Sequence record: PP216084
Direction: 5' to 3' (one strand)
Length of the DNA stretch: 64,000 nt
Origin: Escherichia phage vB_EcoS_HZ_ZJUN2
A program made the translations under genes and the position numbers. Under the pieces are notes generated by a model. It was not told the DNA's origin. It did no database searches and saw only the letters and a list, made by a program, of their open reading frames with translations. Every line of letters begins with the position of its first letter. Within the stretch, counting starts at the first letter, position 1. Shown here piece by piece: positions 58,969-63,933 of this stretch.

Positions 58969-59211
58969 TTACGATTCCTTGAGCAAAGAAGCAAGTTCAG
59001 CATAGACTTTATCTAACTCAAAGCCGATGCGAAGAGACACGTTTGTTTTCCGTTGTTTAAGTAACCACTCGGATATGTTAGGGATGCCAGCTAGTCTAGC
59101 AGGAACCACCCTACATAGCTTTTCCGAAGTATCATAAACAGGAACTTTACGTTCTTTTACTGGAAACTTCCTTGTTTCCCATTTTTTATTATTCACTGTC
59201 ATTTCTAGCAC
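58969..59211 (-). CDS. Hypothetical basic protein, 80 aa
   Basis: ORF in track; overlaps the end of the 928 aa gene. Confidence 0.4.
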   Translation of the reverse strand: MLEMTVNNKKWETRKFPVKERKVPVYDTSEKLCRVVPARLAGIPNISEWLLKQRKTNVSLRIGFELDKVYAELASLLKES

Positions 59212-61975
59212 CTAGCTCTGACATTGCTTCTTCTGCCATAGCCTTCTCTTCCTCTGTCATGAATTTGAAAGGAATTGGCATACACTCGATTTTACAATAG
59301 GTTCTGTACCAGTCTACGATATTCTCCGTGTTCATATCTTTACCAATACCCATCATACCAAGATACATTCTAGCATATTTTGGGTTAGCACTCTGGCCTG
59401 TTTTAAGGAAGAAATCCTTTTTCTTACCTTTTAGAGCTTCTATGAATGGTTTAATGGTTACATTTGAACACTTCTTAATGTCTTCCCAGAACATCTCGTG
59501 CATCTTATGAAAGAATGCAGCTCGATCATTTGGTTTATCTTTGATATATTGTTCAACATGCTCAACTGTTACATCTTTAATAGACTCAAGATGATAATAG
59601 CGAACAATAAGTAGTTTAGCTTCATACGCATCAGCATGACGTGGAGCACAATAATCCGGAGTTGAATGTAGAATAGCTTTGATTCGCTCTTCCGTATACT
59701 CTTTTCCTGCACCTTCGATAGTTCCCCAGCTTTCACTGAAAATATCAATAGTTGCACCCTGATCAAGCAAGTAATAGCGTAGAGTACTAGTATAGTTTCT
59801 AGATTCCAGCTCCCTGCGACGTGCATATAGTTGCTGTGCTAACTCCAGCCAACCCTCATCAATGTTATATTGCTCAGAACCTGCGGAGAATCCACTCGTA
59901 GATTTATCAATAAAATAATAAATGTTCTGAGCGCCACGGTCGCGCCTGATTGCTTGGAAACGCATGTTTGGCGCTTGGTTTGAGGTTCTAGTGATAACGA
60001 ATACGTTATCAAAATAGTTGAAGTCAACACCACTAGTTACGGATGGACTACATAATAAGCAATCAATTTGTTGGTCAATTAGCTCATTAGTTGTGTAATC
60101 CAGGATACGTCGAATATCTACATCAGACGTAGAGTTTGAATGGATTTCCTTAACTAACGCACCCGTATTACGACGCAATGCCATGCCCTTCTCATTCAGT
60201 TCATCAGGGCCACAATCAGATACCAGAATAGATTTCTCCCCCATCTCTAGAGAAGTCTGAAGTGCAACCCAAATACTGGATTCGTCAGGGAATTCATAAG
60301 CATGAGCTTTTGATAGCATCTTACGGTGATGATTATAAAATGCTACTGGTTTATCAAAATCAATTAGAGAACCATATGCTTCAATAGTTTCGGCACTAAT
60401 ATCACCATCTGATAGAATCACAGTTTTAGCTGTCATGAGGATGTCACGTAGAACTTGAATACATTCGCGACGTTGTTTAACAACTGGGGCGAATAATAGA
60501 TCATTCATTACAGCGTCACATTCATCAATAAAGATGGTGTCTATTTGACCAATAAAACTTTTGAACTTATGCAAAGAGTGAATAGTTGTGGACATACGAT
60601 CAATAGCCCCACGTTTAAAGTTGAGCATATCTACAGACTTATCATATTGTCCTGCGCTAAATTTCTTAGCGTTTGAAGATACCAGCGCTCTAGTATTTGT
60701 AACTGCTAAAAAGTTGCCAGGAAGAACACCTGCGTCCAGCCATTTAGTTACTGCCGTAGTTTTACCAGTACCAAGACTTGCCTTAACAAAGGTTATGTGG
60801 CCTTTTGGAGGCACAATGTTAATCTTCAGGTATGGAACTTCTGGTGGAGAATCCACTTCTAATTTCTTGAGTGGAACACCCTTCAGATTTAATGGAATCT
60901 CACGTTTAGAATTATTAACAAACGCTTTGAGAGCCTGCTTACGACCGTTATTAAAGTAATCTTGAATATTACGACTGTTATCTTTAGTTGCAATATATTC
61001 AGATAAAGCGGGTTTAATCTCACGTTCTAGCCATGCGAAATCAACACCATCCTCTAATGCTCTATGGTATAGTTTAGGGATAATACGCAAGTACACCCCA
61101 TCCTCAGCTTCTTCCAATTCGCTGATAGTTTCTTCTACTTTATCAGACGCGATCTTTTTGCCTTTAATTTGGTCAAGTAAGGAATAGAATTCCTCTTTGA
61201 ACTCCCCTCTAGTTGTTTCATAGTCAACCAGATTATTAGGCAAATTTACCTTCGAACCTTTAACATACACCAGACGTGGCTTACTCTCCGCTTTAAACGG
61301 ATCAACAATACCATCACTAAATAAAGGATCGGCAAAATAATGGAGCTGGACAGATGAATAATAAGCTAAGTCGGCAATGTCAAAACCGAATTTTTGCTTA
61401 CTACTATCATTGATAGACGTAAATAAGAACTTTAACTGACCTTGAGTTACCTTGACGTTAGATTCTAGCATTAAGTGCATTCGGATACCTGGTTTTAGGC
61501 CAGCCGAAGACGATGCATGAGCAATAAATCCTGCATCAAGAGGAAACATGTCCTCACTAATACTATTCAACATCTTAATAATGTGGCGGGCCATACCTAC
61601 AAGATTAAACTTGTCGTATCCACCGGTATCTAGGATACCATCCACGTCCATAGCAATAATATTGCTATGGTTGGATACATTAAAGTTACCTTTCTTACGC
61701 CGCACGTTATTTTTAGGTGCAAGACATCGACCTCGTACCGCAACGATATGAGGGTCTGACGTTAAACGTCTCATAAGAGGTAACATTTCGGCAAGGCTTT
61801 GCGGGTCATGCTCTTCTATTACATCAAATTTGAATGGCATAGAGGCTGGTTTACCTTCTGGATGCTCTTTCGAGAATCGCTTGGCAAAGGTATAATCTTC
61901 CGCTTTGATTTCTCGCCAAATACCTGTTGCTAAATCGCGAGAAAATCCGGCGTGACCTTGAAGAATAGAAAACAC
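59189..61975 (-). CDS. Large replication protein, 928 aa; origin-binding-protein-like helicase with distinct N-terminal domain
   Basis: Walker A SLGTGKTT, Walker B IFIDECDA, helicase-C-like segment; N-terminal ~350 aa unassigned. Confidence 0.6.
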   Translation of the reverse strand: MFSILQGHAGFSRDLATGIWREIKAEDYTFAKRFSKEHPEGKPASMPFKFDVIEEHDPQSLAEMLPLMRRLTSDPHIVAVRGRCLAPKNNVRRKKGNFNVSNHSNIIAMDVDGILDTGGYDKFNLVGMARHIIKMLNSISEDMFPLDAGFIAHASSSAGLKPGIRMHLMLESNVKVTQGQLKFLFTSINDSSKQKFGFDIADLAYYSSVQLHYFADPLFSDGIVDPFKAESKPRLVYVKGSKVNLPNNLVDYETTRGEFKEEFYSLLDQIKGKKIASDKVEETISELEEAEDGVYLRIIPKLYHRALEDGVDFAWLEREIKPALSEYIATKDNSRNIQDYFNNGRKQALKAFVNNSKREIPLNLKGVPLKKLEVDSPPEVPYLKINIVPPKGHITFVKASLGTGKTTAVTKWLDAGVLPGNFLAVTNTRALVSSNAKKFSAGQYDKSVDMLNFKRGAIDRMSTTIHSLHKFKSFIGQIDTIFIDECDAVMNDLLFAPVVKQRRECIQVLRDILMTAKTVILSDGDISAETIEAYGSLIDFDKPVAFYNHHRKMLSKAHAYEFPDESSIWVALQTSLEMGEKSILVSDCGPDELNEKGMALRRNTGALVKEIHSNSTSDVDIRRILDYTTNELIDQQIDCLLCSPSVTSGVDFNYFDNVFVITRTSNQAPNMRFQAIRRDRGAQNIYYFIDKSTSGFSAGSEQYNIDEGWLELAQQLYARRRELESRNYTSTLRYYLLDQGATIDIFSESWGTIEGAGKEYTEERIKAILHSTPDYCAPRHADAYEAKLLIVRYYHLESIKDVTVEHVEQYIKDKPNDRAAFFHKMHEMFWEDIKKCSNVTIKPFIEALKGKKKDFFLKTGQSANPKYARMYLGMMGIGKDMNTENIVDWYRTYCKIECMPIPFKFMTEEEKAMAEEAMSELGARNDSE

Positions 61976-62483
61976 AACAATACTCCTGTGTTGGTTAATC
62001 GAAAATCTTTTCTTTAGGACTATTCAGAAAGAATAGAACAACTATTACTACTATTTACGTAAACATCAATTATCATCAAGCAATATGAATAAGTTATCAT
62101 ATCTCAGTGCTGTGCTCTCTTCGCTCATATACAGAATAGAACCTAGGTCATTGGCCGCTAAGCCGATTCTATTTGTCCTCACTATCCTATTGGTAGGTGA
62201 CTACTGTACGTGCCGCCATTCGCTGCTCTTTTCGTTCGCACCCCCATATAAAGCTCTGCCTATATAACGAGCTAAATATGCACGGTTTGGATTTACCTTT
62301 CCGAATTCAGGGTACACAGATCACTTAATTGAAGATTAACTAATGCAATATAAACACTAGTAATAGTTAAAACAACCCTTAATGGGGCAGCCTAACTGTT
62401 CCGTATCGCGGATTGTAAACAAGAAAAATTAGCAAAATCAATTTTTACTAATGTCTCTCAATTCAATATAAATATTATATCAA

Positions 62484-62512
62484 GATTTTGGGCATCATGC
62501 AAGTAAATTTTT
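62484..62512 (-). promoter_or_regulatory. T5-type early promoter (TTGCAT-17-TATAAT) with AT-rich UP region
   Basis: Reverse complement; fires into a ~500 nt region without a long ORF before the 928 aa gene. Confidence 0.55.
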
Positions 62513-62593
62513 CCCAAAGGTGCTATCAGTGTCTTTGAGCATAGAGAAAACCGAGCCAAAATGACTCGGTAATCAGAGTTCAGCTAATAAAAA

Positions 62594-62986
62594 TCATTTG
62601 TCATTTAGGCCTGGAACATAGATCCCAACACGGTTTAATTGTTCTTTAGCTTCTTTGAGAATATCTGGAGTGTATTCCCAAATATCATCTTCCACCTGTA
62701 AAAGATGGGGCGAACAACCGTCATCCGGCACACGACATATGGCCAAACCACGTGGATGGAATATAGAGAAGTTTAGGGCAACAATCAAGCCCATAGCAGA
62801 CAATTCATTCCAATCCAATTCCCATTCCCCGGCGTATCCAGACAGGAAAACACCAACACAGGGATCATCTGTTTGCTGCTCAGGAAAAGTGAAGGAGGCT
62901 TGTCTTACCCCCAACCAACGTTGTAGCAGCTTTTCCGCACGCTTCACCAAACTAGGGTCAATCTGACGCCAAAATACTTGTTCCAT
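62594..62986 (-). CDS. Hypothetical protein, 130 aa, paralog of 62996-63424
   Basis: Shared motifs PC[VI]G, W[EK]ELD, MGL[IV], ALN, PGL[NT]. Confidence 0.55.
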   Translation of the reverse strand: MEQVFWRQIDPSLVKRAEKLLQRWLGVRQASFTFPEQQTDDPCVGVFLSGYAGEWELDWNELSAMGLIVALNFSIFHPRGLAICRVPDDGCSPHLLQVEDDIWEYTPDILKEAKEQLNRVGIYVPGLNDK

Positions 62987-62995
62987 TCTGCCTCC

Positions 62996-63424
62996 TTAAG
63001 CAGTTAAACCTGGGATCATATACCCGAAACGTCGAAGTTTCTGAATCCCCTCATTTACTTCTTCCGGTGAGTAAGACCAACCATAACGTTCATTAACTTG
63101 AAAACCAGGAGATTCACTAGTTTTATAGTTAACAACGAGGCGATGCTTAGCAGGCATAAACAGCTTATAGTTTAACGCAAAAACTAAGCCCATTTCATCT
63201 AACTCTTTCCAGCCGACAATCTCTTCAAGACCATCCTCTACCTGAACAATTAAACCAATACAGGGAGCCTCATCAATATCATCTTTAAAGGCAAAGGAGA
63301 TTTCGTTATTCTCACACCATATTTTCAAAGAGTTAATAGCCTCATTATACAGGCTAGCCGGGAGAGTACGCCAAAAGTTAACCAAAATTGGGTTAGCTTC
63401 TTTAGAGAATACATTATTGAACAT
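62996..63424 (-). CDS. Hypothetical protein, 142 aa, paralog of 62594-62986
   Basis: Same motif set and spacing as the neighbour; tandem arrangement with 9 nt gap. Confidence 0.55.
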   Translation of the reverse strand: MFNNVFSKEANPILVNFWRTLPASLYNEAINSLKIWCENNEISFAFKDDIDEAPCIGLIVQVEDGLEEIVGWKELDEMGLVFALNYKLFMPAKHRLVVNYKTSESPGFQVNERYGWSYSPEEVNEGIQKLRRFGYMIPGLTA

Positions 63425-63426
63425 AT

Positions 63427-63933
63427 TTACACCTTAAATTGCTGTAAGGATTTACACATTTCAAGATCTGGGCTAAATTCTAGCATATAGCTAACAGCTT
63501 TTAAATCTTGAAGATTTATCCCAGTCCTACCGTTGACTATAACCGTTGGATACTGATACATCATAGCACCCGCATCATCAAGCACACACCAATGTTTGAG
63601 CTTATGCTTTTCAACGAAGCGAAGAACAGAATTACCCCTAGATAATCCACCCCCAGTAAAATCCGTTGTACCAAGAAAACGATCGATAAGACCTAATCCG
63701 GTCATAATCCGAACGTTCTCCATCTCATTTCTAACAGAGAACCAAGATGATACTCCAACAATCATTATCGGAGAAAGACGAATAAAGTCCTGAAAAGCCT
63801 TGAGAAGCGGTTTGAAAACCCAGTCACTTCCAAAGAAAATCTTTTCATCATCAGGTGCATGATGGTGGGAGATGCTCGAATTGAGCACTCCATCAATGTC
63901 CAGAAAAATAATTGGAGTATTACTTATTTCCAT
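63427..63933 (-). CDS. HAD-like hydrolase (putative phosphatase), 168 aa
   Basis: N-terminal IIFLDIDGVLNS (HAD motif I) and later VLDDAG. Confidence 0.5.
   Translation of the reverse strand: MEISNTPIIFLDIDGVLNSSISHHHAPDDEKIFFGSDWVFKPLLKAFQDFIRLSPIMIVGVSSWFSVRNEMENVRIMTGLGLIDRFLGTTDFTGGGLSRGNSVLRFVEKHKLKHWCVLDDAGAMMYQYPTVIVNGRTGINLQDLKAVSYMLEFSPDLEMCKSLQQFKV

What the first reader, a model, noticed from the sequence alone, without database searches (positions are those of the whole stretch)
62594..63424. Tandem paralog pair of unknown 130-142 aa proteins
The two adjacent ORFs share a conserved motif series (PC[VI]G, W[EK]ELD[EA]MGL, ALN, PGL) with the same spacing but are otherwise diverged, indicating an old tandem duplication kept under selection. 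Paired diverged paralogs in phage early regions are often inhibitors of host factors with split specificities.
Basis: seen in the sequence. Interest (0 to 1): 0.45.

Follow-up and report, generated by a model that had tools for sequence, protein, structure and literature searches.

The report
Tandem DUF7415 gene pair of T5
Two neighbouring early genes of a T5-like phage are real, old duplicates of each other and belong to a widespread, catalogued but uncharacterised family of small acidic phage proteins (DUF7415), so the pair is real but its function is still unknown.

Summary
On the minus strand, 62594..62986 (130 aa, "A") and 62996..63424 (142 aa, "B") are paralogues: 32% identity over 124 aa, BLASTP E 3e-21. 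The window is a T5-like phage, and the genes are the orthologues of T5.107 and T5.106.

The duplication predates the Markadamsvirinae/Sugarlandvirus split, and Serratia T5-like phages carry a single copy. Both genes are under purifying selection (dN/dS 0.05-0.27).

The copies are unequal. A keeps the canonical DUF7415 module found in small proteins of P2-like and T4-like phages (78 bits). B's module is degenerate (34 bits), and natural alleles of B with an internal deletion exist.

The pair ends an early operon (nrdD, Sir2-like, HAD phosphatase, B, A, terminator) and is tightly coupled for translation. All family members are strongly acidic.

The most likely role is a non-enzymatic A/B binder of a host factor or ligand. 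This is inferred, not shown. The family is already catalogued and the finding is of moderate interest.

The parts
62996..63424 (-). Gene B, 142 aa, orthologue of T5.106. N-terminal alpha/beta half, then a degenerate DUF7415 module (about residues 70-118), a C-terminal helix and a PGL tail.
   Evidence: ORF. Pfam DUF7415 at 120.8 bits and PHROG 2502 at E 1e-62. 93% identical to T5.106. AF2 pLDDT 88.3, pTM 0.82. An HMM built only from single-domain family members scores it 34 bits.
62594..62986 (-). Gene A, 130 aa, orthologue of T5.107. N-terminal alpha/beta half with a hypervariable loop (residues 34-57), then a canonical DUF7415 module (residues 57-105), a C-terminal helix and a PGL tail.
   Evidence: ORF. 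Pfam DUF7415 at 109 bits and PHROG 2502 at E 1e-61. 93% identical to T5.107. AF2 pLDDT 94.9, pTM 0.88. The single-domain HMM scores it 78 bits. Column entropy is 1.37 in residues 34-57 against about 0.5 elsewhere.
62991..62995 (-). Shine-Dalgarno GGAGG for gene A, inside the 9-nt spacer (TAA GGAGGCAGA ATG). B and A are in the same reading frame.
   Evidence: Read from the sequence.
63430..63435 (-). Shine-Dalgarno-like AAGGTG for gene B, formed by the last two codons of the upstream HAD gene. Only 2 nt separate that gene's stop from the ATG of B.
   Evidence: Read from the sequence.
62550..62570 (-). Intrinsic terminator ending the operon, 24 nt after the stop codon of A (9-bp stem, then TTTCTCT).
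   Evidence: Terminator scan. A terminator is annotated at the same place in T5, HdH2, Spivey and Slocum.
63427..63933 (-). Upstream operon neighbour, 168 aa, orthologue of T5.105: a HAD-superfamily phosphatase of the 'Swiss Army Knife' RNA-repair type. Included as context, not as part of the pair.
   Evidence: Pfam HAD_SAK_2 at E 7.7e-20. Absent from the equivalent operon of Klebsiella phage Spivey and Serratia phage Slocum.

Best explanation
Shown: the two genes are the T5.106 and T5.107 orthologues of a T5-like phage. They descend from an ancient tandem duplication of a roughly 130-160 aa acidic alpha/beta protein whose C-terminal module is the widespread phage domain DUF7415. They are the last two cistrons of an early operon (nrdD, small ORFs, Sir2-like, small ORFs, HAD phosphatase, B, A, terminator). 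They are packed for coupled translation, and both are under purifying selection. The copies have diverged asymmetrically: A keeps the canonical module and carries a hypervariable loop, while B's module is degenerate.

Inferred: the ancestral single-copy protein probably worked as a homo-oligomer, and after duplication A and B work together as a hetero-oligomer. The complex is most likely a non-enzymatic, strongly acidic binding protein made early in infection. It would sequester or block a conserved host nucleic-acid-handling protein, or less likely a nucleotide-type ligand. It is unlikely to be a structural protein, a nuclease or an RNA-binding protein. The target is unknown.
For: Paralogy: E 3e-21. 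Identity with T5.106 and T5.107, and the operon with its promoter and terminator. Family membership: Pfam DUF7415 at 109 and 121 bits, PHROG 2502.

Age of the duplication: A and B clades each include Markadamsvirinae and Sugarlandvirus proteins. Serratia phages Slocum and Kamaji have one copy, placed between the two clades. Selection: dN/dS 0.05-0.27.

Asymmetry: the canonical-domain HMM scores A at 75-87 bits, B at 33-36 bits, and Sugarlandvirus-type B at only 7-18 bits. An in-frame deletion allele of B (74 aa) occurs on 7 contigs with A intact beside it.

Coupling: a 9-nt spacer with GGAGG in this window and a 4-nt overlap in Spivey. Both genes are present in about 522 of 523 records.

Acidity: pI 4.0-4.8 and net charge -7 to -24 for all orthologues. 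94% of 136 domain cores have pI below 6.

The single-domain relatives occur on their own in unrelated phage types: after gpA in P2-like phages, between NrdD and NrdG in Jiaodavirus, and in Pseudotevenvirus. This indicates the module acts without a dedicated phage partner.

Against: The near-invariant residues of the domain (N, S, G, H-P-x-G-L-A, G-x-S, D-G, Y) could mark a ligand pocket or catalytic site rather than fold-determining turns. Fusions to dNTP pyrophosphohydrolase and a thymidylate-kinase-like domain point toward nucleotides rather than proteins. High conservation across very different phages is unusual for proteins in an arms race with defence systems.
Confidence: 0.35

Rival explanations
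1. A and B are accessory subunits (regulators, adaptors or substrate-recognition parts) of the phage Sir2-like enzyme and HAD phosphatase encoded in the same operon. Iyer et al. 2022 predicted that module to be an NAD-dependent RNA-end repair system.
For: A Sir2-like gene and the DUF7415 gene or genes are kept together in every Demerecviridae lineage examined, even where the intervening genes are lost. T5, HdH2, phiR2-01 and falkor have Sir2, two small ORFs, HAD, B and A. Spivey has Sir2, one small ORF, B and A without HAD. Slocum has Sir2 directly abutting the single DUF7415 gene. PMC9503650 section 3.7.3 predicts RNA repair for the Sir2 plus SAK-HAD neighbourhood of the T5-like phage SP15.
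Against: The linkage is confined to one phage family, so it may be inherited synteny. The same Sir2 clade (57-62% identical) in Vequintavirinae (BIS47, FFH2) and in KVP40-like phi-pp2 has no DUF7415 within 6 kb. DUF7415 proteins are common in P2-like phages of about 33-37 kb, where no Sir2 appeared among the top 25 neighbour families. Iyer et al. do not mention these genes.
Confidence: 0.2
2. DUF7415 is a small ligand-binding module for a nucleotide, deoxynucleotide or NAD-derived molecule, acting as a sensor, regulator or sponge. A would be the ligand-binding subunit and B a degenerate scaffold.
For: A roughly 50-residue core has near-invariant polar and glycine residues across hundreds of divergent phage proteins. 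Fusions exist to dATP/dGTP pyrophosphohydrolase (2), a thymidylate-kinase-like domain (1) and ASCH/DUF3850 (2). Neighbours include NrdD/NrdG, ribonucleotide reductase, NUDIX and Thy1. In T5 the operon follows nrdD within a nucleotide-metabolism region.
Confidence: 0.2
3. The proteins are what some database records call them: an exonuclease, a tail or tail-tube protein, an RNA-binding protein or a MazG-like enzyme.
For: These labels are attached to orthologues in some GenBank and UniProt records.
Against: The labels contradict each other. Pfam, NCBIfam and PADLOC show no such domain, and there is no structural match to nucleases, tail proteins or MazG. The genes sit in an early operon far from the structural genes. 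A net charge of -7 to -24 argues against nucleic-acid binding. The MazG label probably comes from fusion proteins.
Confidence: 0.03

Closest known systems
T5.106 / T5.107 of phage T5 (Pfam DUF7415, PF24187; PHROG 2502)
   Same: Orthologues: 93% amino-acid identity each, and the same position, order, spacing and terminator. Database proteins 99-100% identical to B exist.
   Different: Nothing of substance; this is the same gene pair in a sister phage. The family has no assigned function in Pfam or PHROGs.
Single-domain DUF7415 proteins of P2-like, T4-like (Jiaodavirus, Pseudotevenvirus) and other phages
   Same: They share the canonical core of about 50 residues (consensus idWN..S..GLi.rIN.eilHPlGLA..r.p.tG.S.g.lv..Dg.weY). 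The C-terminal module of A matches it at 78 bits. These proteins are equally acidic.
   Different: They are 60-200 aa with one module. It is often at the N terminus and sometimes fused to other small phage domains. The T5-type proteins add an N-terminal alpha/beta half and occur as a pair. The two-module form was seen only in T5-like phages.
Sirtuin + 'Swiss Army Knife' HAD neighbourhood of SP15-type phages, predicted NAD-dependent RNA repair (Iyer et al. 2022, PMC9503650)
   Same: The pair lies in this very operon, directly after the HAD gene.
   Different: That paper does not include these genes in the system. The link to Sir2 does not hold outside Demerecviridae.
AcrIC4 (PDB 8dfo chain M), a 57-residue anti-CRISPR

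Membership tests
Pfam DUF7415 (PF24187) | Whole-protein score above the curated gathering threshold (27 bits) | tested here: met
   A scores 109 bits and B 120.8 bits. Each half scored separately is also above threshold: 58 and 53 bits for A, 69 and 52 bits for B.
Pfam DUF7415 (PF24187) | Canonical core as found in single-domain members (W-N..S..GL...N...HP.GLA..R...G.S....D..W.Y) | tested here: met
   Met by the C-terminal module of A: 78 bits with an HMM built only from single-domain members, all key residues present. B's module is only partly canonical (34 bits; N, S, H, GLA and D replaced).
Pfam DUF7415 (PF24187) | The N-terminal half is a second, diverged copy of the same domain (internal duplication) | tested here: inconclusive
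   For: the Pfam model matches the N halves end to end, and the AF2 models show strand-helix-strand-strand twice. Against: my single-domain HMM gives 0 bits or less on the N halves. hhalign of N halves against the single-domain alignment gives probability 2.3%, E 0.02. hhalign of N against C halves matches only one helix.
PHROG 2502 | Full-length profile match | tested here: met
   E 1.4e-61 for A and 1.3e-62 for B, covering the whole profile. The category is 'unknown function'.
Sir2 / SAK-HAD predicted RNA-repair module (Iyer et al. 2022) | Conserved gene neighbourhood with the sirtuin across independent phage lineages | tested here: not met
   The neighbourhood is conserved within Demerecviridae. 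It is absent next to the same Sir2 clade in Vequintavirinae and KVP40-like phages. Most DUF7415 loci lack Sir2.
Known anti-defence proteins and known defence systems | Sequence or fold match to a characterised inhibitor or system component | tested here: not met
Exonuclease / tail tube protein / RNA-binding protein / MazG (labels in some records) | Presence of the corresponding catalytic or structural domain | tested here: not met
   No such family in Pfam or NCBIfam, no structural match, and acidic pI 4.6-4.7.
Hetero-oligomer of paralogues | Physical A-B interaction | not testable with these tools
   Only indirect support: co-occurrence in about 522 of 523 records, coupled translation signals, and a single-copy state in Serratia phages.

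The most novel reading that the evidence does not exclude
DUF7415 is a fold with no solved relative and defines a new, very widespread class of phage-encoded binding proteins, for example an inhibitor of a conserved host nucleic-acid enzyme or a sponge for a nucleotide-derived signal. The T5 pair would be an obligate asymmetric heterodimer in which only one of the modules (the C-terminal module of A) keeps the working site.
Probability: 0.15. Interest if true: 0.7.

Novelty: already known. Interest (0 to 1): 0.33.

Why it matters
T5 is a classical model phage, yet this pair is conserved in more than 500 sequenced relatives and is still only labelled 'hypothetical'. Its core module recurs in small early proteins of P2-like, T4-like and many uncultivated phages (153 clusters at 50% identity). 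It has no solved structure, no paper and no function. A function found for T5.106 and T5.107 would therefore annotate a large set of phage genes at once. The work here also gives experimenters concrete starting points: A is the canonical copy and B the degenerate one, natural partial-deletion alleles of B exist, and a single-copy version exists in Serratia phages. The gain is limited, because nothing here shows the function is unusual.

Tried and rejected
1. Sequence searches of the PDB with A, B and a 45-sequence family profile gave no meaningful hit.

3. NCBIfam and PADLOC gave nothing.

4. Literature searches for DUF7415, T5.105-107, T5 early and anti-defence genes, viral sirtuins and Tequintavirus accessory genes found no functional study. 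The T5.015 paper holds no supplements.

5. I tried to confirm the internal duplication independently of Pfam. hhalign and an HMM built only from single-domain members did not support it, so it stays unresolved.

6. I considered Sir2 as an obligate partner and rejected it as a general rule after finding no DUF7415 near the same Sir2 clade in three other phage groups.

7. I looked for more distant two-module relatives in IMG/VR using P0053, P0056 and P0062. This gave nothing new. The first alignment given to the locus finder was too diverse to be searched.

8. The spacer and genes were searched against Rfam with no match. Repeat and composition scans of the downstream spacer showed nothing decisive.

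9. From reading the sequences, I thought some fusion partners looked Lar-like or MazG-like (P0101, P0112). Pfam at E 0.001 did not confirm this, so I make no such claim.

Full report
**What is there**

The stated interval holds two minus-strand ORFs: 62594..62986 (130 aa, here "A") and 62996..63424 (142 aa, here "B"). BLASTP of A against B gives 32% identity over 124 residues with one gap, E 3e-21. One motif needs rewriting as W[NK]EL[SD][AE]MGL.

**Source of the window**

The region is 96-97% identical at the DNA level to T5-like phages such as Salmonella phage SE11 and Escherichia phage HdH2, and 525 phage records match it. In phage T5 itself the same two genes are T5.106 (B) and T5.107 (A). 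They are the last cistrons of an early transcription unit that has an annotated promoter before T5.100 and a terminator after T5.107.

In this window:
- The terminator lies at 62550-62570 on the minus strand.
- A is preceded by TAA-GGAGGCAGA-ATG.
- B starts 2 nt after the stop codon of the upstream gene, behind an AAGGTG.
- The upstream gene (63427..63933) is the T5.105 orthologue, a HAD phosphatase of the HAD_SAK_2 type.
- Further upstream, outside the window, lie a Sir2-like gene (T5.102; PF02146, E 1e-24) and nrdD.

**Family**

Both proteins match Pfam DUF7415 (109 and 121 bits against a cut-off of 27) and PHROG 2502, category unknown function. NCBIfam and PADLOC gave nothing.

Database names for the orthologues contradict one another: exonuclease, tail tube protein, RNA-binding protein, MazG-like. 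None is supported by any domain or fold match.

An exhaustive profile search of 1.84 billion representative proteins found 153 clusters with E of 0.001 or better. Most are small proteins of 60-200 aa carrying a single module of about 50 residues. Its consensus is idWN..S..GLi.rIN.eilHPlGLA..r.p.tG.S.g.lv..Dg.weY.

Some members are fused to other small phage domains:
- dATP/dGTP pyrophosphohydrolase (2)
- DUF3850/ASCH (2)
- a thymidylate-kinase-like domain, Cox, DUF551, PGDYG and a ClpX-type zinc finger (1 each)

In 31 IMG/VR loci the commonest neighbours are P2-type replication protein gpA (8), Dam methylase (5) and DUF3850 (3). Ribonucleotide reductase, NUDIX, an exoribonuclease, UvsW and Thy1 each appear once or twice. 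In Jiaodavirus the gene sits between NrdD and NrdG. P2's own Orf91, in the same slot after gene A, is DUF3850 and not DUF7415.

**Structure**

AlphaFold2 gives confident models: B with pLDDT 88.3 and pTM 0.82, A with pLDDT 94.9 and pTM 0.88. Both show strand-helix-strand-strand, then helix-helix-strand-strand, then a C-terminal helix.

**Is each protein an internal repeat?**

Pfam's model matches both halves of each protein above threshold, and the secondary-structure pattern repeats. However, an HMM I built only from single-domain members does not see the N-terminal halves (0 bits or less). hhalign gives 2% probability. N against C halves match only in one helix. This question is unresolved.

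**Evolution**

In a tree of two-module proteins, A-type and B-type sequences form separate clades. Each clade contains Markadamsvirinae (T5, falkor, phiR2-01) and Sugarlandvirus (Spivey) members. The duplication is therefore older than that split.

Serratia phages Slocum and Kamaji carry one copy of about 164 aa. It is equally similar to A and B and lies directly after the Sir2-like gene. Two-module proteins were found only in T5-like phages.

Nei-Gojobori dN/dS at unsaturated distances is 0.05-0.11 for B and 0.08-0.27 for A, so both are maintained by selection.

The copies are not equivalent:
- The single-domain HMM scores A's C-terminal module at 75-87 bits.
- It scores B's module at 33-36 bits, and only 7-18 bits in Sugarlandvirus-type B.
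- A carries a hypervariable, indel-rich segment at residues 34-57.
- An in-frame deletion allele of B (74 aa, lacking residues 56-123) occurs on seven contigs with A intact beside it.

**Function**

No study of these genes was found. Iyer et al. 2022 predicted that the sirtuin plus SAK-HAD neighbourhood of T5-like phage SP15 is an NAD-dependent RNA-end repair system, without mentioning these genes (PMC9503650).

I tested whether the pair belongs to that system. The Sir2-DUF7415 linkage holds in every Demerecviridae lineage examined, even where HAD is lost. It fails for the same Sir2 clade in Vequintavirinae and KVP40-like phages. Most DUF7415 genes also have no Sir2 nearby. The module therefore seems to act autonomously.

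All orthologues are strongly acidic (pI 4.0-4.8, net charge -7 to -24), as are 94% of domain cores. This argues against nucleic-acid binding.

The conserved residues are largely Gly, Pro, Asn, Ser and Asp at predicted turns and helix caps. They may define the fold rather than a pocket.

My best reading, at about 0.35, is an early-expressed, non-enzymatic acidic binder working as an A/B hetero-oligomer against a conserved host factor. The rivals are a partner of Sir2/HAD (0.2) and a nucleotide-type ligand binder (0.2). None of these is demonstrated.

**Verdict**

The pair is real, old and selected, but it is the already catalogued T5.106/T5.107 pair of the DUF7415 family. This analysis adds four things:
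- the asymmetry between the copies
- the single-copy and partial-deletion variants
- the extent of the family
- the negative results on fold, Sir2 dependence and database labels

Interest is moderate (0.33). It would rise sharply only if a new binding or anti-defence activity were shown.

Noticed in passing
window 63427..63933 (-): The T5.105 orthologue is a HAD_SAK_2 phosphatase according to Pfam (E 7.7e-20). RefSeq records and PHROG 18062 label it 'Sir2 (NAD-dependent deacetylase)', which looks like a propagated mislabel. The real Sir2-like gene (T5.102) lies just beyond the window end.
   Followed up: partly
window 61976..62593: A 618-nt stretch without a convincing ORF lies between the terminator after gene A and the 928-aa T5.108-like 'replication origin binding' gene (59189..61975, minus strand). 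It contains an 18-nt inverted repeat with arms 293 nt apart (62040-62057 and 62351-62368) and has no Rfam match. T5 annotates a promoter here, followed by a leader of about 470 nt.
   Followed up: partly
window 62987..62998: B and A are in the same reading frame, separated only by TAA plus 9 nt (GGAGGCAGA). Read-through of the stop would give a B-GGR-A fusion. This may well be chance.
   Followed up: no
L047:3001-3225 (Logan SRR22878009 contig), also L048 and L049: Natural T5-like phages carry a 74-aa in-frame deletion allele of B (residues 56-123 missing) between an intact HAD gene and an intact A gene. It was seen on seven contigs from several samples.
   Followed up: partly
L042:3998-4492 (Serratia phage Slocum): This T5-like phage has a minimal operon: a hypothetical gene, a Sir2-like gene, one two-module DUF7415 gene, then a terminator. 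The DUF7415 start coincides with the last base of the Sir2 gene. There is no nrdD and no HAD gene. It may represent the state before the duplication.
   Followed up: partly
L044 and L045 (Klebsiella phage BIS47, Escherichia phage FFH2): The same Sir2 clade (57-62% identical to T5.102) in Vequintavirinae sits beside RNA ligase and DNA ligase genes. In BIS47 it is also near nicotinamide phosphoribosyltransferase and PRPP synthetase. This fits the published RNA-repair and NAD theme, and no DUF7415 is present.
   Followed up: partly
B residues 23-36 versus 121-134 (window 62996..63424, minus strand): The N-terminal helix and the C-terminal helix of the proteins resemble each other (W...P..[LV].E[AG]I..L[KR].[WF]; hhalign P 0.0014). 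This hints at a repeat or pseudo-symmetry different from the one Pfam's domain boundaries imply.
   Followed up: no
L038:4317-4646 (phage P2 Orf91): In P2-like phages the slot right after replication gene A holds DUF3850/ASCH in P2 itself, DUF7415 in others, or a DUF3850-DUF7415 fusion (P0081, P0185). This suggests interchangeable small early modules at that position.
   Followed up: partly
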